Source: a virus. From it: a stretch of DNA of 42,520 nt. Made by a program: the position numbers and the translations under genes. The notes under the pieces were generated by a model that saw only the letters and a program-made list of their open reading frames with translations, searched no databases and was not told where the DNA came from. Position 1 is the first letter of the stretch. Each line of letters begins with the position of its first letter. The stretch lies in IMG/VR virus record IMGVR_UViG_3300045988_013082, positions 1-42,520 of that record; one strand, given 5' to 3'. Below are positions 34,121 through 38,932 of this stretch, piece by piece.

Positions 34121-34148
34121 AGGGGTTCGATTCCCCTCAGCTCCACCA
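34121..34148 (+). other. attP core: 3' end of a tRNA-Ala- or tmRNA-like gene (T-arm, acceptor strand, ACCA)
   Basis: AGGGG-TTCGATT-CCCCT followed by CAGCTCC-A-CCA. No complementary 5' acceptor strand (GGAGCTG) lies upstream, so only the 3' part of the gene is present. Confidence 0.7.
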
Positions 34149-34156
34149 AGAAAAAG

Positions 34157-34188
34157 AAACCAGCAATCGATTGAGATTGCTGGTTTTT
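34157..34188 (+). terminator. Rho-independent terminator after the tRNA-like fragment and integrase
   Basis: AAACCAGCAAT-cgattgag-ATTGCTGGTTT followed by TTCTTTT. Confidence 0.7.
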
Positions 34189-34308: not shown

Positions 34309-34785
34309 TCAGTCCCGCTTCACAATCCCATGATAATACCCGGCCATCTTCGCCTCCGGGCCTCCGGCATCCTTATCCATGAGGAAGGCTTTGGCAAGGT
34401 CGGCGTAGAACTCCGGCCGGTCAAGGCCGTACTTGGCAGCCACACCGTAATAGTCCGAGTACATCATGTTCATTGCCGCCCACCAGATGCAGGACTTCGC
34501 ATGAACACCTGTGATATTGGCCACAGCATCCGTCTGCTCCATCGTCCAGTGTGCGCCGGTCGTACCGTCCTCGTTTTCCATGTGCGATACCCACTTTTCA
34601 GCATCCTCGCGGGTGAATTCCATCATTTTCGTGGACTCACGAAAATGGTCATCGTCCAGTTTGTGCAGCGCACAAATGGCGTCCGCGTACACCGTGACTT
34701 CTTCCGCGCGCCCAAGCGTCACCGGGCGCTCCATGATCTCATGCAGCTGCCGTTTCAGTTCTTCGATATAATGCTCTTTTCCCAT
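34309..34785 (-). CDS. Hypothetical protein (cargo operon gene 3)
   Basis: 158-aa ORF with a conserved-looking core, MENEDGTTGAHWTMEQTDAV...WWAAMNMMYSDYYGV. I cannot name a family. Confidence 0.6.
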   Translation of the reverse strand: MGKEHYIEELKRQLHEIMERPVTLGRAEEVTVYADAICALHKLDDDHFRESTKMMEFTREDAEKWVSHMENEDGTTGAHWTMEQTDAVANITGVHAKSCIWWAAMNMMYSDYYGVAAKYGLDRPEFYADLAKAFLMDKDAGGPEAKMAGYYHGIVKRD

Positions 34786-34786
34786 G

Positions 34787-35125
34787 TCAAGCCTCCTGAA
34801 TGTATTTGTAAAGCCGGTCGACGTCGTTCACATCGAACCGCAGCTCCCCAATGACCGGAATGGTCAGTGGGATCTTCTTTCCGTCCACCTGCGTTCTCGC
34901 GGCGTTGTAGAGCCGGTCAAGGTCGATATTGCCCTCTGCATCCATAATGCCCATCATCTGCACTGCCGGGTGATCCTTCAGCGCAAGGATGCGGCTTTTG
35001 CCGCCATCCATGATAAGCGCCAGCGCGATTCCGGCTCCAATGCCCTTGCCGGTTGGCAGGTGCGGGATGATCTCATTGTCGGCATACTGCGCCACGCCGC
35101 GCATGGCCTGATCTATTGTCACCAT
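34787..35125 (-). CDS. Hypothetical protein with one Gly/Ala-rich hydrophobic segment (cargo operon gene 2)
   Basis: 112-aa ORF whose stop lies 1 nt from the next ATG. It contains GKGIGAGIALALIMDGG. Confidence 0.55.
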   Translation of the reverse strand: MVTIDQAMRGVAQYADNEIIPHLPTGKGIGAGIALALIMDGGKSRILALKDHPAVQMMGIMDAEGNIDLDRLYNAARTQVDGKKIPLTIPVIGELRFDVNDVDRLYKYIQEA

Positions 35126-35175
35126 ATTGGTTTACCTCCATTTTAAGGTGGGGCGGCTATTGCCGCCCCTTTTGC

Positions 35176-35754
35176 TTAGTTCTTGCAGCAGCCGCACTTC
35201 GGGAGCGGATTGTAGAGCGTCTGCGCAGTGGTCGCGGTTCCGGTGGTGACGTCTGCAACCTGCTTCGGATAAAAGGTGGCGTTGGCATAAGTCACGATGG
35301 CGTTGTCGCCGCAGCAGCGCCGCTCGGCCTCCATCTCGATCTCGCGGTGCAGCTCGGACTTGACCGAAGCGATGTCCTGGCGGGCAAGGACGAAGCTGTC
35401 CTCGGTGCGCTGGTTATGCACGGCCTGATCGCAGATCGACTTACGGATGTCCTTGAGCTGGCCGTCGATGTAAGCGTACATCTCCAGCGACTTCTGATCG
35501 TTGTAGGTGTTGGCCTTGAGCATCGCGATCTCGCTGTCCTTCGCGGCCAGCTTCTGCTCCCGGTCGAGCTCGTAGCGCGTGACCGGCATGTTCTCGCTGC
35601 ACGTGCCCGCCGCTACAGCCGCAGCAGCCGGATTTACACCCCAGCCGTTCCAGCCGCCGAGTAGGTTGCCCAGCAGTCCAAGACCGACGCCAGCCGTGCC
35701 GATGATGCCAGTGGTCAGGGCCGCATTGGCCTTGCCGTTGCTTGCGTATTCCAT
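35176..35754 (-). CDS. Hypothetical membrane/coiled-coil protein with a Cys-rich C-terminus (cargo operon gene 1)
   Basis: ATG 35754 after GGAGGGAA. It has a glycine-zipper-like segment (GIIGTAGVGLGLLGNLLGGWNGWG), a coiled-coil middle, RRCCGDN and a terminal KCGCCKN. Confidence 0.6.
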   Translation of the reverse strand: MEYASNGKANAALTTGIIGTAGVGLGLLGNLLGGWNGWGVNPAAAAVAAGTCSENMPVTRYELDREQKLAAKDSEIAMLKANTYNDQKSLEMYAYIDGQLKDIRKSICDQAVHNQRTEDSFVLARQDIASVKSELHREIEMEAERRCCGDNAIVTYANATFYPKQVADVTTGTATTAQTLYNPLPKCGCCKN

Positions 35755-35933
35755 AGAGTTTCCCTCCAAAAAATGTAGTAAGCTGGCCAGCTCCTACGAT
35801 CAGTATGAGGGATTTTGAAATTCCGGGGGACGCACGAAGGTAGCATGAGAGACGCATTTATGTAGCATTTCTGACGCATCGGCGCATAAGTTCGATGCTA
35901 CATATTAAATTCTCGGAAATTTGCGAAAATCTA

Positions 35934-35961
35934 TTGCAAATTCTCGCAGTCGCGCTATAAT
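35934..35961 (+). promoter_or_regulatory. Sigma-70-type promoter of the Dcd-like/TM gene
   Basis: TTGCAA (35934-35939), 16-nt spacer, TATAAT (35956-35961). GGAGG at 35979-35983 lies 7 nt before the ATG. Confidence 0.65.
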
Positions 35962-35990
35962 TTAGGCAAAGAAAGAACGGAGGTAAGGAT

Positions 35991-36803
35991 ATGATTTTGG
36001 TTGACCACGATCTTTCAAAACTGATTGCTGATTCAGGAATCATTCAAGAAGACACGTTCTCTCCTGACTGCATTACAAACATCGGGTACGATCTTCGCAC
36101 AAAGGCTTTTTATGATGACGATGGGGAACACACGTCAAAGACCATCGCTCCGGGTGAATCCGTAATGGTTTCAACAGAAGAAATTATAAATATGCCCGTC
36201 GATATGGCGGCTATCGTGCATGACCGTAATAGCCGCATCCGTCAAGGATTGTCTGTCTCTGCTCCAATTTATCAACCAGGGCATAAGACGCGGGTGTTTT
36301 TCCGGCTTACTAATATTTCCGAGAATGAGATCCGCCTAAATGTAGAAGACAGCTATGCCATGATCGTTTTTGAAAAACTATCTGGCTCAGCAGACAAGCC
36401 TTACAGTGGGAAGTTTAAGGATGAAATCGGCGGTTACACAGGTTTAAGCGGATACAAAAAGGCTTATGAAAAACAAATCAATCAGCTTGACAAAAAGGCA
36501 GGCGATGTAAAAGAAATCGAAAAATCTATTTACGCAAACGTTCTGGCGATTCTTGCTGTCTTTGTTGCAATCTTCAGCTTGATTTCTACCAACGTAAAGC
36601 TTCTTGAAGATGAATCCACTTTGCGAAGTTTCATCGGCTATAACCTCATAACCGTTGGTGGAATCAGTTTCCTCCTGACATTGCTTCGCACCACAATTTT
36701 GAATGACCTTTCCAGAAAGAAACCAGTCAAAGGATTCTTTGTTTGGTTACCTACAATCGTCGTGTTTATTGCGGCACTTCTCGTTTTTCTGCTCGTAAAA
36801 TAG
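35991..36803 (+). CDS. dCTP deaminase/dUTPase-fold domain fused to a coiled coil and C-terminal transmembrane helices
   Basis: Residues 1-~150 align by eye along E. coli Dcd (ITNIGYDLR; IAPGESVMVSTEEIINMP; DRNSRIRQGLSV; IYQPGHKTRVFFRLTN; MIVFEKLSG..DKPY.GK). A charged helix and 2-3 hydrophobic helices follow (VLAILAVFVAIFSLI, LITVGGISFLLTLL, VWLPTIVVFIAALLVFLLV). Confidence 0.75.
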   Translation: MILVDHDLSKLIADSGIIQEDTFSPDCITNIGYDLRTKAFYDDDGEHTSKTIAPGESVMVSTEEIINMPVDMAAIVHDRNSRIRQGLSVSAPIYQPGHKTRVFFRLTNISENEIRLNVEDSYAMIVFEKLSGSADKPYSGKFKDEIGGYTGLSGYKKAYEKQINQLDKKAGDVKEIEKSIYANVLAILAVFVAIFSLISTNVKLLEDESTLRSFIGYNLITVGGISFLLTLLRTTILNDLSRKKPVKGFFVWLPTIVVFIAALLVFLLVK

Positions 36804-36808
36804 GAAAA

Positions 36809-36842
36809 GCCCCCGACAGGATCACTCCTGCCGGGGGCTTTT
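36809..36842. terminator. Bidirectional rho-independent terminator
   Basis: AAAA-GCCCCCGACAGG-atcact-CCTGCCGGGGGC-TTTT lies between the convergent stops at 36803 (+) and 36868 (-). Confidence 0.8.
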
Positions 36843-36867: not shown

Positions 36868-37134
36868 TTACTCGTTTATCATTTGCAGCTTTGCTGCCGT
36901 GTGCCGCGCTCGTGCGTAGATCTGCGGCAGTCTGCGGGTGATCGTGCTCCGCGCCATGTCCAGCTCCACCGCGACGTCAATTTGCGGCGTCTTGTCCATG
37001 ACATAGCGCCGGACGATCTCCGCGTCCTGCTCACTGTAGCCTGCCTGAGATATGATCTGCTCCCACTCGCCTTGCAGCAGGCCGGTCAAGTCATCCGGAA
37101 TCCGCACCCTCGCGCTGATCGTCACCACCTCCAA
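36868..37134 (-). CDS. Sigma-70 region-4-only HTH protein
   Basis: 88-aa ORF with an uncertain start (TTG or GTG). YSEQDAEIVRRYVMDKTPQIDVAVELDMARSTITRRL resembles a region 4 HTH. It is the last gene of the late operon, after the endolysin. Confidence 0.5.
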   Translation of the reverse strand: MEVVTISARVRIPDDLTGLLQGEWEQIISQAGYSEQDAEIVRRYVMDKTPQIDVAVELDMARSTITRRLPQIYARARHTAAKLQMINE

Positions 37135-37160: not shown

Positions 37161-37850
37161 CTACTGCTTATGATTCAGGATTGGGACATTGCCCTTGTTC
37201 GACACTTCGAGATCCAGCGCCTTTGCAATATCTCTGATCTTGATGTAGTTCGTGCCGTCCTTTAAGATCCGTTCGACCTCGACCTCCTGGCCATCTACGA
37301 TCATCTTTGCCTTTGTGACCACTTCGTCCACCTCCTCCAAGAGCTTCTTGAATGCTTCCCACTTCGTTTCGTCAATTAGCGGCAGCGGACACAGTTTCAT
37401 CGAAATGTCATAATGTCGGATTGCGGCCTGCACGCCCGGCAGCTGCTTCAACAGCATTTGATAAAGCCGCGCCGCATTTTTCATCGTCGCCTCCGGGATG
37501 TAATACTTGCCGGAGGCATCTGTGTGGCTCACCATCTCGATACTGACGGTGTTGTAGTTGCCGTACACCTTGCCGTATTTGCCGCTCCTGCCGTCGCCCA
37601 CGGCCCAGGCCACCACATCCAGCGGCACACACTGATAAACGGTATCGCCCTCGTCGACCACGAAATGTGCCGAAGCAGCGCGTCCCTCGGAGCCGTTTGC
37701 AAAATACCTGGCATTGCCAAGCGCCGTCGCGTGCAGACCGGTATTGGCCGTGTAGTGGAACACGATTGCCCGGATAGCCGAGAGCGGCCGCCTGCCGCCC
37801 ACTCTCGTTGCCCGGATGGTATCGTTAATTTTCAGTGCCATTGTCGTCAC
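37161..37850 (-). CDS. Endolysin, N-acetylmuramoyl-L-alanine amidase (Amidase_2/PGRP type) with a C-terminal binding domain
   Basis: IRAIVFHYTAN...SAHFVVDEGDTVYQCVP...AWAVGD is the amidase_2 pattern. It lies directly downstream of the holin. Confidence 0.85.
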   Translation of the reverse strand: MTTMALKINDTIRATRVGGRRPLSAIRAIVFHYTANTGLHATALGNARYFANGSEGRAASAHFVVDEGDTVYQCVPLDVVAWAVGDGRSGKYGKVYGNYNTVSIEMVSHTDASGKYYIPEATMKNAARLYQMLLKQLPGVQAAIRHYDISMKLCPLPLIDETKWEAFKKLLEEVDEVVTKAKMIVDGQEVEVERILKDGTNYIKIRDIAKALDLEVSNKGNVPILNHKQ

Positions 37851-38049
37851 CCTTCGCGTCCATCGCGTCCTGCGCCTTTTGCGACTGCGTGCCGAAGTAG
37901 AACGTTACTACCATCAGGAAGATCGTCAAAAAGTCTTTCCCTGTGATATCGCCCCGGAGCGCCAGCACCGTGAACACCACCGTCAGCAGCAGCGTCACCA
38001 GCGACTTCACGCTCAGCAGATTCGACAGCCGTTTCATAATTTTGTCCAT
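37825..38049 (-). CDS. Holin
   Basis: ATG 38049 lies 8 nt after AAGGAG. The 74-aa product has two hydrophobic helices and a charged C-terminus. It lies immediately upstream of the endolysin. Confidence 0.7.
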   Translation of the reverse strand: MDKIMKRLSNLLSVKSLVTLLLTVVFTVLALRGDITGKDFLTIFLMVVTFYFGTQSQKAQDAMDAKGDDNGTEN

Positions 38050-38063
38050 GTTATGTACTCCTT

Positions 38064-38366
38064 TCACGCTTCCACGATGTTGATACCGTACTGCTCCGCG
38101 CAGATATGCTCAATCTTGCAGCCGCGGGCGTTCTTCCAACCGGATGCGAAATACGCAGCGTCAGCCGTCGCCAGCAGCTCCAAAGACCGACCGAGACACC
38201 AGAGCGCCGTGTTCTGCACGTCCGGGTGCGTCTCGAAATATGTATCAATAACTTCTATCTCATCCCCGACAATCTCCCTCGCGCACCGGAGCGCATCTTT
38301 GCGATCTGCAAGTATTTCTTCTTTGCTCTTGCCCTTCATGGGCTGAGAGATAAACAGTTTTTTCAT
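38064..38366 (-). CDS. Second DUF4406 / nucleoside 2-deoxyribosyltransferase-like protein, inside the lysis cassette
   Basis: ATG 38366 after AAGGAG. KLFISQPMKGKS...ATADAAYFASGWKNARGCKIEHICAEQYGI has the same motif layout as the 22583..22909 protein. Confidence 0.5.
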   Translation of the reverse strand: MKKLFISQPMKGKSKEEILADRKDALRCAREIVGDEIEVIDTYFETHPDVQNTALWCLGRSLELLATADAAYFASGWKNARGCKIEHICAEQYGINIVEA

Positions 38367-38378
38367 AAGCAACTCCTT

Positions 38379-38636
38379 TCAGTCCTTTAGCACGATCTCC
38401 AAAAACCGTGCCTTTTCCTCTGCCGTATATGTTTCCGGCAGGCTCTCAATGTACTTGATTGCGTATTTACTTCTGTTCTCATTCTTTGCCTTCCAGAGGT
38501 AAAACATCCCAATCGCCGTCGCAAATCCGATGACTGCCAACGTGACCTCCACACTCAGCACGCCGAGCACATTCAGGATAATGCAAACGACGCTTGCCGC
38601 CGCGCTGCCAATCAGCAGCTTCTTCGAAGTCTCCAT
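38379..38636 (-). CDS. Small two-TM membrane protein (holin-like / lysis accessory)
   Basis: ATG 38636 overlaps the XhlA stop (TGATG). The 85-aa product has two hydrophobic helices followed by a charged tail. Confidence 0.5.
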   Translation of the reverse strand: METSKKLLIGSAAASVVCIILNVLGVLSVEVTLAVIGFATAIGMFYLWKAKNENRSKYAIKYIESLPETYTAEEKARFLEIVLKD

Positions 38637-38932
38637 CACACGATCCCCGCATGAGCCAGCGCGAAGCCAACCAGCGCCCCCACAATGGCCGTTAGGGTTG
38701 CCTTGACCAGCGCCTCCCATTTCCCGCCGGGGATGGCCTTGAGGCTCTTCACGTCGTCCTTGATCTCGCTGATATTGGCCTCGATCGTCTCCTGCTTCGT
38801 CGCCAGCACCTCTACCGAGGTCGCCAGCTGATGCAGCGCCCGGTTGTCCTCCTCCAAGTCGTCAATGCGGTGCGTGTTGCTCTTGCTGCGGGCCTCGATC
38901 TCCGCGATCTTCGCCTGAATTCCATCGTCCAT
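38636..38932 (-). CDS. xhlA: XhlA-family (haemolysin XhlA-like) lysis-associated membrane protein
   Basis: 98 aa with an N-terminal coiled coil (IAEIEARSKSNTHRIDDLEEDN...) and a C-terminal TM (LTAIVGALVGFALA), as in PBSX XhlA. Confidence 0.65.
   Translation of the reverse strand: MDDGIQAKIAEIEARSKSNTHRIDDLEEDNRALHQLATSVEVLATKQETIEANISEIKDDVKSLKAIPGGKWEALVKATLTAIVGALVGFALAHAGIV

What the first reader, a model, noticed from the sequence alone, without database searches (positions are those of the whole stretch)
34309..35990. attP-proximal three-gene operon of unknown membrane/Cys-rich proteins, divergent from the Dcd-like gene across a repeat-rich control region
**Seen in the sequence**
- Three tightly coupled minus-strand genes (192, 112 and 158 aa) lie between the attP terminator (34157-34188) and the Dcd-like gene.
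- Gene 1 has a glycine-zipper-like hydrophobic segment, a coiled coil, and a C-terminus with RRCCGDN and a terminal KCGCCKN.
- Gene 2 has a GxxxG-rich hydrophobic stretch.
- Gene 3 has a conserved-looking MENEDGTTGAHWTMEQT...MYSDYYG core.
- The 236-bp divergent intergenic region carries these repeats:
  - an inverted repeat, TATGTAGCAT (35859-35868) and ATGCTACATA (35895-35904);
  - a third TAGCAT at 35841;
  - GACGCAT twice (35851 and 35872);
  - AAATTCTCG twice (35907 and 35938), flanking the -35 of the plus promoter.
- A plausible minus-strand promoter reads TTCGCA-17-TATGTA (35927 down to 35899).

**Inference:** terminators bound the whole 34.3-36.8 kb block on both sides, so it behaves as one cargo island. 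It may be a four-gene system under common regulation. I cannot assign any of the three proteins to a characterised family.
Basis: partly seen in the sequence, partly recalled or inferred. Interest (0 to 1): 0.62.

Follow-up and report, generated by a model that had tools for sequence, protein, structure and literature searches.

The report
Self-regulated late gene cassette of gut phages
The three genes are real and belong to a widespread gut-phage gene cassette of unknown function that carries its own small regulator and a promoter built for very high expression, whereas the neighbouring Dcd-like gene is an unrelated passenger inserted at a cargo hot spot.

Summary
**Observation:** confirmed. 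The three minus-strand genes and every listed repeat are present; one coordinate is off by one base.

**What it is:**
- The window is a complete 42.5-kb temperate phage of gut Clostridia.
- The trio (g1, g2, g3) is a conserved phage module, not a cargo island.
- Among phages sampled through their endolysin, 45 of 54 carry the trio. The Dcd-like gene is in only 1 of those 54, and in 2 of 99 g1-bearing loci.
- The Dcd-like gene is low-GC. It occupies a hot spot that elsewhere holds ToxN, Panacea, DUF3800 or NYN genes.
- g3 is Pfam DUF7841. In other phages a half-ferritin takes its place.
- g2 gives a confident model with no match among solved structures.
- Relatives occur in Bacteroidota phages, including the prototype crAssphage (gp61, gp59, gp58).

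**Regulation:**
- The "repeat-rich region" is five direct repeats spaced exactly 11 bp apart, upstream of a promoter with no -35 element.
- A covarying 5' hairpin follows the promoter, and a GC hairpin follows g1.
- A small sigma-region-4-like gene ending the lysis operon precedes the cassette in 92 of 100 loci.

**Best reading (inferred):** an activator-driven, very late, g1-dominated module that builds a membrane-anchored coiled-coil assembly acting at the cell envelope around lysis.

The scan has found this cassette before on other DNA.

The parts
35176..35754 (-). g1, 192 aa. Gly-rich hydrophobic N-terminus (residues ~13-36), one long helix (60-160) and a Cys-rich C-terminus (CCGDN...CGCC). 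It is the dominant product of the cassette.
   Evidence: - ORF.
- 4338 relatives among 90%-identity clusters and 490 representatives at 50% identity.
- Alignment A1 has an 18-residue stretch identical from Clostridia to Alistipes loci.
- AF2 gives helix 60-160 with block pLDDT 73-89; the rest is below 50.
- No Pfam, NCBIfam or PADLOC hit, and no PDB sequence hit.
34787..35125 (-). g2, 112 aa. Soluble helical protein with a beta-hairpin. The fold has no solved counterpart.
   Evidence: - ORF.
- Follows g1 in 89 of 99 loci.
- AF2 pLDDT 85.4, pTM 0.75.
- Best PDB match by Foldseek has E 0.8 and TM below 0.3.
- BFVD matches are only uncharacterised proteins of uncultured phages, including crAss-like cr108_1.
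34309..34785 (-). g3, 158 aa, Pfam DUF7841. Its start lies one base after the g2 stop codon.
   Evidence: - PF25223: 92.7 bits, E 2.4e-26.
- 1749 relatives, all carrying PF25223.
- Present in 60 of 99 g1 loci.
- In many other loci the slot holds a ~100-aa half-ferritin/rubrerythrin-like protein, which is not homologous to g3.
35150..35169 (-). Intercistronic GC hairpin GGGGCGGC-AAUA-GCCGCCCC after g1, with no U-tract. Probably a 3' stabiliser or partial terminator that sets g1 well above g2 and g3 in abundance.
   Evidence: -: -24.2 kcal/mol, z -4.5.
- Conserved in nearly all loci. L098 and L104 have a different sequence that forms the same hairpin.
35775..35797 (-). Hairpin near the 5' end of the g1 leader: GUAGGAGCUGGCCAGCUUACUAC. 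It begins a few nt after the -10 element.
   Evidence: - Fold.
- Alignment A7 of 26 loci: 92% of cells paired, 20 cells changed on both sides against 6.7 in shuffles, and at most 60% paired when the partner column is slid.
- Non-palindromic loops (GGAA, GAAA, GAAC) in relatives argue for an RNA hairpin rather than a DNA operator.
35802..35807 (-). -10 element CATACT of the conserved g1 promoter. There is no recognisable -35; the sequence at that position is C-rich.
   Evidence: - Positions 2 (A) and 6 (T) are nearly invariant in alignment A7.
- Upstream sequences of 99 loci.
- The sigma-70 consensus scan did not call it.
35762..35767 (-). Shine-Dalgarno sequence GGAGGG of g1.
   Evidence: Sequence; conserved.
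35829..35879 (-). Array of five direct repeats ATGC[GT][TA]C phased at exactly 11 bp; the last repeat abuts the -35 position. Putative activator-binding sites.
   Evidence: - Unique in the window.
- Phased arrays of 3-5 units with subgroup-specific motifs (TGACGA x5, TGCGTC x4, CATGGT x4, AATTGC x4) occur in many related loci and are rarely reached by shuffles.
35895..35901 (+). Inverted sixth copy of the repeat, at the edge of the Dcd-like insert.
36868..37134 (-). hth88, an 88-aa sigma-region-4-like HTH. It is the last gene of the lysis operon, 26 nt after the endolysin. Putative dedicated activator of the cassette.
   Evidence: - ORF. Weak PHROG HTH and sigma hits.
- A small HTH gene occupies this position in 92 of 100 loci.
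- Positional counterparts reach Pfam Sigma70_r4_2 (29.6 bits, L023) and weakly Mor (L022).
- hth88 itself has no Pfam hit.
35991..36803 (+). NOT part of the cassette. Dcd-like / transmembrane gene with its own promoter (35934-35961). It is low-GC cargo inserted between the regulator gene and its target promoter.
   Evidence: - Pfam DCD 49.5 bits.
- GC 42-45%.
- Present in 2 of 99 and 1 of 54 related loci.
- Beside a different cassette variant in L113.
36805..36842 (.). Bidirectional terminator ending the lysis/hth88 operon and the Dcd-like gene.
   Evidence: -.
- In loci without an insert, the same terminator directly abuts the repeat array (L008 and L052).
34155..34188 (.). Terminator downstream of g3. 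It sits next to the attP core, which mimics a tRNA 3' end (34122-34148).
   Evidence: sequence; no complete tRNA found.

Best explanation
The three genes, together with the small HTH gene at 36868-37134, form one copy of a self-contained phage cassette that is widespread in gut phages.

**Proposed working**
1. The sigma-region-4/Mor-like HTH protein is made as the last product of the late lysis operon.
2. It binds the five 11-bp-phased direct repeats and activates a promoter that has a -10 element but no -35.
3. The transcript starts with a stabilising 5' hairpin, carries a strong ribosome-binding site and, after g1, a GC hairpin. g1 is therefore made in large excess over the translationally coupled g2 and g3.
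4. g1 anchors in the cytoplasmic membrane through its Gly-rich N-terminus. It projects a roughly 100-residue coiled-coil stalk ending in a Cys-rich tip.
5. g2 (a fold with no solved counterpart) and g3 (DUF7841) are minor partners or assembly factors.
6. The assembly acts at the cell envelope at the very end of the lytic cycle, in lysis or in release of progeny.

**Status of each step**
- Shown here: gene content, synteny, distribution, the RNA hairpins, the repeat array, and the independence of the Dcd-like gene.
- Inferred: the activator role of the HTH protein, the late timing, the membrane topology and the envelope function.
For: **Distribution**
- g1 has thousands of relatives, none with a name.
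- The order lysis genes - small HTH - [optional insert] - g1 - g2 - g3 holds across 99 loci.
- 45 of 54 loci sampled through the endolysin, independently of g1, carry the cassette.
- The cassette is present in crAss-like phages, which are not classical integrating prophages. In Carjivirus communis, gp58 is DUF7841 (E 2.5e-39), gp61 shares the N-terminal motif and architecture of g1, and gp59 sits in the g2 position.
- It is also present in the cultured Bacteroides phage BF1-TP2.
- In L104 a variant sits just upstream of the portal gene.

**Composition**
- GC matches the phage backbone.

**Regulation**
- The repeat array is unique in the window and exactly phased.
- Comparable arrays with motifs that differ by HTH subtype occur in related loci.
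- A conserved -10 without a -35.
- The repeats lie upstream of the promoter, the geometry of an activator rather than a repressor.
- The HTH gene follows the endolysin or holin by 7-26 nt with no terminator between.
- Some HTH counterparts reach Sigma70_r4_2, and one weakly matches Mor.

**Expression design**
- The 5' hairpin shows covariation.
- The GC hairpin after g1 is conserved.

**Protein features**
- g1 has a long helix.
- Its N-terminal flank is more positively charged than its C-terminal flank in 58 representatives, against 9 the other way. This predicts N-in, C-out.
- g1 has invariant Cys at positions 52 and 148 and nearly invariant Cys at 147, 187, 189 and 190.
Against: - There are no expression data.
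- hth88 itself has no Pfam hit. Its link to the repeats could reflect shared ancestry of neighbouring DNA rather than binding.
- The hydrophobic segment of g1 is marginal for a transmembrane helix (mean Kyte-Doolittle 1.35), and AF2 confidence there is below 50.
- g2 and g3 have no signal peptide, which fits poorly with a partner whose stalk lies outside the membrane.
- The cassette is absent from 9 of 54 phages sharing the endolysin and from crAss001, so it is not essential for lysis.
- Its position varies: after the lysis genes here, among genes annotated as putative tail genes in crAssphage, and before the portal gene in L104. That fits a virion role equally well.
- No fold or sequence link to any lysis protein was found.
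Confidence: 0.42

Rival explanations
1. Virion-associated module. g1 would be an abundant trimeric coiled-coil fibre or decoration protein, or a membrane-inserting ejection protein, that joins the particle late. g2 and g3 would be its chaperones or assembly factors.
For: - The cassette is always co-oriented with late genes.
- In crAssphage it lies among genes annotated as putative tail proteins.
- In L104 it lies directly upstream of the portal gene.
- g1 is built for high expression relative to g2 and g3. That pattern is typical of a structural protein with minor assembly factors.
- g1 has a long coiled coil with a small C-terminal region.
Against: - A dedicated regulator and a separate promoter are unusual for virion parts.
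- A strongly hydrophobic Gly-rich N-terminus is not expected in a soluble fibre.
- The cassette is missing from about a sixth of phages with the same endolysin and from crAss001.
- No PHROG structural family matches.
- The crAssphage 'tail protein' label is an unverified annotation.
Confidence: 0.2
2. Lysogenic-conversion or superinfection-exclusion moron. The operon would be expressed from the prophage and place a membrane protein that blocks incoming phages or changes the host envelope.
For: - It sits between the lysis genes and attP, the classical moron site.
- It has its own promoter and terminators.
- It neighbours a hot spot filled with toxin-antitoxin and defence-like genes.
- g1 looks membrane-anchored.
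Against: - Its GC equals the phage backbone.
- It occurs in crAss-like phages and next to a portal gene.
- The promoter lacks a -35 and appears to need an activator encoded at the end of the late operon.
- There are no PADLOC hits.
- The mRNA design for very high expression is atypical for exclusion proteins.
Confidence: 0.14
3. Redox or metal-handling module of phages of anaerobes. The Cys clusters of g1 would bind a metal or sense oxidation, and the third gene (DUF7841 or a half-ferritin) would handle iron or peroxide, protecting infection or virions on exposure to oxygen.
For: - In other loci the third slot is a rubrerythrin/ferritin-like half domain with invariant E, E and H and a nearly invariant D.
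- A Mn-catalase gene follows g3 in L100.
- g1 has conserved Cys clusters.
- All host assignments found here are strict anaerobes of the gut.
Against: - g3 of this window is not homologous to the ferritin-like proteins.
- Nothing in g1 or g2 matches a known redox fold.
- The restriction to anaerobes may simply reflect sampling of gut metagenomes.
- The catalase may be independent cargo.
Confidence: 0.08
4. One reading: a four-gene system in which the Dcd-like membrane protein and the three genes are divergently co-regulated from the repeat-rich region.
For: - The two units are physically adjacent and divergent in this window.
- Terminators lie on both sides.
- An inverted copy of the repeat lies on the Dcd side.
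Against: - The Dcd-like gene is present in 2 of 99 and 1 of 54 related loci.
- Its GC differs from the trio.
- The same slot is empty in 46 loci and otherwise filled by unrelated cargo.
- In L113 the Dcd-like gene sits next to a different cassette variant.
Confidence: 0.02

Closest known systems
Pfam DUF7841 (PF25223) and the unnamed cassette around it in gut phages, e.g. Carjivirus communis KP06_gp61-gp58 and Bacteroides phage BF1-TP2 gp40-gp36
   Same: - g3 is a clear member of DUF7841.
- crAssphage gp58 and BF1-TP2 gp36 are DUF7841.
- crAssphage gp61 and BF1-TP2 gp40 share the N-terminal NGKANAxLTxGIIGTA motif of g1, its coiled coil and its Cys-rich end.
- Gene order is the same.
   Different: - The Bacteroidota versions carry extra genes (gp60; gp39-38).
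- Similarity to g1 outside the N-terminus is low: hhalign aligns only 28 columns.
- The gp59-g2 link is weak (probability 39%).
- None of these proteins has a known function, so the comparison names the family and does not explain it.
i-spanin Rz of phage lambda (inner-membrane spanin subunit)
   Same: - Architecture: N-terminal membrane anchor, long coiled coil beyond the membrane, and conserved Cys that could form intermolecular disulfides.
- Encoded next to holin and endolysin genes and needed in many copies late in infection. The properties of Rz are from established knowledge.
   Different: - There is no sequence or family match.
- There is no outer-membrane lipoprotein partner, since g2 and g3 have no lipobox or signal peptide.
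- The hosts here are monoderm Clostridia.
- The cassette has its own regulator and is dispensable in related phages.
Small phage late-gene activators acting at promoters without a -35 (Mor and C of phage Mu; p4 of phi29; Alp of TP901-1)
   Same: A small HTH protein encoded by the phage, binding sites just upstream of a promoter that has a -10 but no -35, and a cascade in which one late unit switches on the next (established knowledge). One positional counterpart gives a weak Mor hit, and others reach Sigma70_r4.
   Different: - Here the sites are 3-5 direct repeats at 11-bp phasing, not a dyad.
- The regulator appears dedicated to one three-gene operon.
- hth88 itself has no significant family hit.
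- Binding and activation are untested.
5' mRNA stabiliser hairpins of Gram-positive bacteria (ermC leader, aprE leader, phage SP82 stabiliser) and intercistronic hairpins that set subunit ratios
   Same: A stem-loop within a few nt of the predicted 5' end, followed by a strong SD, and a stable GC hairpin after the first cistron.
   Different: The transcription start has not been mapped, so the distance of the hairpin from the 5' end is inferred from the -10 element.

Membership tests
Pfam DUF7841 (g3) | Score above the curated gathering threshold over most of the model | tested here: met
   92.7 bits against a cut-off of 25.2, covering model positions 10-113 of 114. All 120 listed relatives carry PF25223.
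Two-component spanin (i-spanin role for g1) | N-terminal transmembrane domain with N-in, C-out topology | tested here: inconclusive
   The hydrophobic segment has mean Kyte-Doolittle 1.35, below the usual value for a transmembrane helix. Charge bias favours N-in in 58 representatives against 9. AF2 confidence there is below 50.
Two-component spanin (i-spanin role for g1) | Adjacent or embedded o-spanin gene encoding a lipoprotein with a lipobox | tested here: not met
   g2 (MVTIDQAMRG...) and g3 (MGKEHYIEEL...) have no signal peptide or lipobox. g2 models as a compact soluble domain.
Two-component spanin (i-spanin role for g1) | Host with an outer membrane | tested here: not met
   The closest host assignments are Oscillospiraceae/Clostridia MAGs. 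Relatives in Bacteroidota phages do meet this feature.
Holin | Match to a holin family, or a small protein with one or more clear transmembrane helices and a charged C-terminus | tested here: not met
   g1-g3 have no Pfam or PHROG holin hit. A separate two-TM holin-like gene lies at 37825-38067.
   2 of 99 g1 loci; 1 of 54 endolysin-sampled loci.
Known anti-phage defence systems (PADLOC) | Match of any of the proteins to a PADLOC model | tested here: not met
   No hits at E up to 1 for g1, g2, g3 or the Dcd-like protein.
Moron / lysogenic-conversion cargo | Base composition deviating from the phage backbone | tested here: not met
   g1-g3 have 54-63% GC, like the lysis genes. Only the Dcd-like gene deviates, at 40-46%.
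Moron / lysogenic-conversion cargo | Expression from the repressed prophage | not testable with these tools
Ferritin-like / rubrerythrin superfamily (g3) | Homology to the half-ferritin proteins that occupy the same slot in other loci | tested here: not met
   hhalign of A5 against A6 gives probability 0.1%. The Rubrerythrin Pfam hits belong to L026 and L104 proteins only.
Sigma-70 region 4 / Mor-type activator (hth88) | Significant match to Sigma70_r4, Sigma70_r4_2 or Mor | tested here: inconclusive
   - hth88 has no Pfam hit at E up to 1 and only weak PHROG HTH and sigma hits.
- Positional counterparts: L023 Sigma70_r4_2 29.6 bits (above cut-off), L094 23.8 bits, L022 Mor at E 0.0067.
Sigma-70 region 4 / Mor-type activator (hth88) | Binding to the repeat array and activation of the g1 promoter | not testable with these tools
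   Only correlative evidence exists: repeat motifs differ with HTH subtype.

The most novel reading that the evidence does not exclude
The cassette would be an unrecognised, phylum-spanning functional module of phages of gut anaerobes. A dedicated region-4/Mor-like activator would drive a burst of one abundant, membrane-anchored, Cys-tipped coiled-coil protein with two novel partners. Together they would carry out a so-far undescribed step at the end of infection, for example envelope disruption or progeny release in both monoderm and diderm hosts, possibly sensitive to redox state. Because the prototype crAssphage carries a version, this would assign a function to some of the most abundant 'hypothetical' genes in the human gut virome.
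Probability: 0.3. Interest if true: 0.8.

Novelty: categorically new. Interest (0 to 1): 0.6.

Why it matters
**Scale**
- The g1 family alone has thousands of sequence clusters, and 490 representatives at 50% identity.
- Relatives occur in phages of Clostridia and Bacteroidota, including the prototype crAssphage.
- No member has a name, a solved fold or a tested function.

**What this report adds**
- A regulatory model that can be tested directly: a small HTH protein, 11-bp-phased repeats, a promoter without a -35, a 5' hairpin and an intercistronic hairpin.
- The Dcd-like gene is removed from the system.
- The gap between the regulator gene and its promoter is shown to be a recurrent landing site for toxin-antitoxin and defence-like cargo.

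**Why a defined function would matter**
- It would explain a conserved block of gut-virome dark matter.
- It might reveal a new step of the phage life cycle.
- The promoter-leader design could also serve as an expression tool for gut Clostridia.

**Caveat on the novelty class**
The function is unknown. "Categorically new" here means that no known kind of system matches. It does not mean a new mechanism has been shown.

Tried and rejected
1. **Family searches.** Pfam, NCBIfam, PADLOC and PHROG scans of g1 and g2 gave nothing usable. The Bacteroidota homologues also gave no PHROG hit.
2. **PDB sequence searches.** Profile searches for g1, g2 and g3 gave only chance-level hits.
3. **AF2 of g1 as a monomer.** It yields one long helix and pTM 0.25. 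This is too poor for a fold search, so none was run.
4. **First hhalign of DUF7841 against the half-ferritins.** This was an artefact, because both alignments contained the same L092 row. Repeated without that row, it shows no homology.
5. **Sporulation-sigma promoter.** The idea that CATACT is a sporulation-sigma -10 (sigma E, G or K) was considered and dropped.
   - No matching -35 lies at the right spacing.
   - The -10 varies as (C/T)A(T/G/C)A(C/A)T with A2 and T6 kept, which is the sigma-A type.
   - The cassette also occurs in phages of non-sporulating Bacteroidota.
6. **Same repeat motif before other operons.** A search of the window found none.
7. **Domain fusion.** P0419 (630 aa) carries the g1 C-terminus, but its N-terminal part matches nothing and it may be an assembly or gene-calling artefact.
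8. **Cultured-phage relatives of g1.** Only weak hits to Bacteroides DAC phages were found.
9. **Literature.** There are no papers on DUF7841 or BF1-TP2. The crAssphage culturing paper (PMC10983915) does not mention gp58-gp61 or transcripts.


Full report
**1. The observation**

The window is a complete virus record of 42,520 bp with direct terminal repeats.

| Gene | Coordinates | Length |
|---|---|---|
| g1 | 35176-35754 | 192 aa from the ATG |
| g2 | 34787-35125 | 112 aa |
| g3 | 34309-34785 | 158 aa |

The only slip is the second GACGCAT, which starts at 35873, not 35872.
- Terminator-like hairpins lie at 34155-34188 and 36805-36842.
- The integrase stop is followed by a mimic of a tRNA 3' end (34122-34148). 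No complete tRNA is present.
- g2 and g3 are translationally coupled (TGA-C-ATG).
- g1 and g2 are not coupled. A 50-nt spacer separates them and holds an 8-bp GC hairpin (35150-35169; -24.2 kcal/mol, z -4.5).

**2. The trio is a conserved phage module; the Dcd-like gene is a passenger**

- g1 has 4338 relatives among 90%-identity clusters and 490 representatives at 50% identity. None has a name or a Pfam domain.
- In 99 g1-bearing loci from viral and bacterial contigs, g2 follows g1 in 89 and g3 in 60. The order is fixed: holin/endolysin, small HTH, g1, g2, g3, then an integrase on the other strand.
- The Dcd-like gene is present in only 2 of those loci.
- Those loci were chosen through g1, so I sampled again through the endolysin. 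Of 54 loci with at least 4.5 kb downstream, 45 carry g1-g2-g3 and 1 carries the Dcd-like gene.
- In that one locus (L113) the Dcd-like gene sits beside a different, five-gene cassette variant that also ends in DUF7841.
- The Dcd-like gene has 42-45% GC. The trio and the lysis genes have 54-63%.
- A small HTH gene lies upstream of g1 in 92 of 100 loci.
  - In 46 it is 118-186 bp away.
  - In the other 46 it is separated by 0.8-2.4 kb of inserted DNA.
- The inserts encode ToxN, a SocA/Panacea antitoxin pair, DUF3800 proteins or a NYN nuclease.

The site between the regulator gene and the cassette promoter is therefore a cargo hot spot. In this window it holds the Dcd-like gene. The four-gene reading is not supported.

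**3. The proteins**

- **g3** is Pfam DUF7841 (92.7 bits).
  - In other loci the third slot instead holds a ~100-aa protein with invariant E, E and H and a nearly invariant D.
  - Two of these reach the Pfam Rubrerythrin threshold.
  - The two kinds of third gene are not homologous. The earlier positive result was an artefact of a shared row.
- **g2** gives a confident AF2 model (pLDDT 85, pTM 0.75).
  - It has no solved structural neighbour: best Foldseek E 0.8, TM below 0.3.
  - In BFVD it matches only uncharacterised proteins of uncultured phages, one of them crAss-like.
- **g1** models as one long helix (residues 60-160). The Gly-rich N-terminus and the Cys-rich C-terminus have low confidence.
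  - Its core is unusually conserved. The stretch AKDSEIALLKANTYNDQK is identical in loci binned to Clostridia and to Alistipes.
  - C52 and C148 are invariant, and C147, C187, C189 and C190 are nearly so.
  - In one phage subgroup g1 keeps 82-85% identity while g2 falls to 34% and the endolysin is no longer detectable.
  - A second g1 allele (~37% identity) occurs with near-identical g2 and g3.
  - The hydrophobic segment is marginal for a transmembrane helix (mean Kyte-Doolittle 1.35).
  - Its N-flank carries more K+R than its C-flank in 58 representatives, against 9 the other way. If it does span the membrane, this predicts N-in, C-out.

**4. Reach beyond Clostridia**

- A DUF7841 protein from an Alistipes-binned locus finds 43 phage records. 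These include Carjivirus communis (KP06_gp58) and the cultured Bacteroides phage BF1-TP2. The Pfam model confirms both.
- In both phages the gene order matches: a g1-like protein, one or two extra genes, a g2-sized protein, then DUF7841. The g1-like proteins are gp61 and gp40. They share the NGKANAxLTxGIIGTA motif, a coiled coil and a Cys-rich end.
- hhalign supports the g1-gp61 link only over the N-terminal 28 columns (probability 90%). It supports g2-gp59 weakly (39%).
- crAss001 lacks DUF7841.
- In L104 a variant (g1-like, g2-like, half-ferritin) lies directly upstream of the portal gene.

A module found in crAss-like phages, which are not classical integrating prophages, and inside morphogenesis regions is unlikely to be lysogeny-specific cargo.

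**5. The control region**

- No other such cluster exists in the window.
- Related loci carry arrays of 3-5 phased repeats with other motifs: TGACGA x5, TGCGTC x4, CATGGT x4, AATTGC x4. Shuffled sequences rarely reach these lengths.
- The motif class follows the subtype of the upstream HTH protein. This fits cognate binding, but it could also come from linkage alone.
- Downstream of the array lies a conserved -10 (CATACT, 35807-35802; A2 and T6 nearly invariant). There is no -35.
- Next comes a hairpin (35797-35775) with covariation:
  - 92% of cells are paired.
  - 20 cells are changed on both sides, against 6.7 in shuffles.
  - At most 60% are paired when the partner column is slid.
- Loops such as GAAA and GGAA in relatives are not palindromic. 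That favours an RNA hairpin over a DNA operator.
- A GGAGG ribosome-binding site follows.
- The hairpin after g1 is conserved in nearly all loci. L098 and L104 keep the structure with a different sequence.

**6. The regulator**

- hth88 follows the endolysin by 26 nt with no terminator between. Its counterparts follow the holin or endolysin by 7-11 nt.
- hth88 has no Pfam hit.
- Among its positional counterparts, L023 reaches Sigma70_r4_2 (29.6 bits), L094 comes close (23.8 bits), and L022 gives a weak Mor hit.
- Repeats placed upstream of a promoter without a -35 are the geometry of an activator. Mu Mor/C and phi29 p4 are precedents from established knowledge.

I infer a cascade: late operon, then HTH protein, then cassette. 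This is inferred, not shown.

**7. Mechanism and rivals**

*Best-supported reading (confidence about 0.4).* This is a very late, self-regulated module.
- It produces g1 in excess as a membrane-anchored coiled-coil stalk with a Cys-rich tip.
- g2 and g3 are minor partners.
- It acts at the envelope around lysis or release.
- The nearest architectural analogue is the i-spanin Rz.
- Membership in the spanin family fails: there is no lipoprotein partner, the hosts are monoderm, and the cassette is dispensable in related phages.

*Rivals.*

| Rival | Confidence |
|---|---|
| Virion fibre, decoration or ejection protein | 0.2 |
| Prophage-expressed exclusion or conversion module | 0.14 |
| Redox or metal module of anaerobe phages | 0.08 |

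*Main weaknesses.*
- The membrane anchor is uncertain.
- g2 and g3 lack export signals.

**8. Novelty**

- No characterised family, fold or system matches g1 or g2, and g3 is a DUF.
- Earlier reports of this scan describe the same cassette on other DNA and likewise left its function open. Their crAssphage lead was checked here and holds.
- Added here:
  - the regulatory anatomy;
  - the hot spot between regulator and promoter;
  - the interchangeable third gene;
  - the exclusion of the Dcd-like gene.

Noticed in passing
window 35880-36804; L004, L012, L019, L025, L029 gaps between the HTH gene and g1: The short interval between the small HTH gene and the cassette promoter is a recurrent insertion hot spot: 46 of 92 loci carry 0.8-2.4 kb there. 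The inserts are interchangeable cargo such as ToxN, a SocA/Panacea pair, DUF3800, a NYN nuclease and, in this window, the Dcd-like transmembrane protein.
   Followed up: partly
L100:1243-1731, L101:5890-6492, and many loci: A second g1 allele with ~37% identity and a different, less Cys-rich C-terminus is combined with near-identical g2 and g3. This suggests exchange of modules within the cassette.
   Followed up: no
L100:2609-3127: A manganese-catalase (CotJC-like) gene follows g3 directly (Pfam Mn_catalase, E 2.3e-46).
   Followed up: no
L113:8982-11143: The only other Dcd-like locus that is not a near-copy of this window has a five-gene cassette variant. It comprises 137-aa and 77-aa Q-rich proteins, a 202-aa TM/coiled-coil/Cys-rich protein, a 130-aa Cys-rich protein, and DUF7841.
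   Followed up: partly
window 34122-34148: GGGGTTCGATTCCCCTCAGCTCCACCA after the integrase stop reads as the T-arm and acceptor 3' end of a tRNA-like gene. It is the probable attP core; ARAGORN finds no complete tRNA.
   Followed up: no
L106 (Bacteroides phage BF1-TP2) 1003-2708: Upstream of the cassette homologue lie three genes: a DnaA_C-like HTH gene, an ATP-binding (histidine-kinase-like) gene and a STAS/DUF4325 gene. This resembles a partner-switching regulatory set.
   Followed up: no
P0419 (630 aa): A protein in the representative library fuses ~525 unrelated residues to the C-terminal 100 residues of a g1 homologue. The N-terminal part matches no family, and the fusion may be an artefact.
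   Followed up: partly
window 38064-38372 and 38379-38720: A nucleoside 2-deoxyribosyltransferase-like gene (phrog_355, E 2e-19) and a 113-aa membrane protein sit just upstream of the holin in the lysis region. Both vary among related loci.
   Followed up: no
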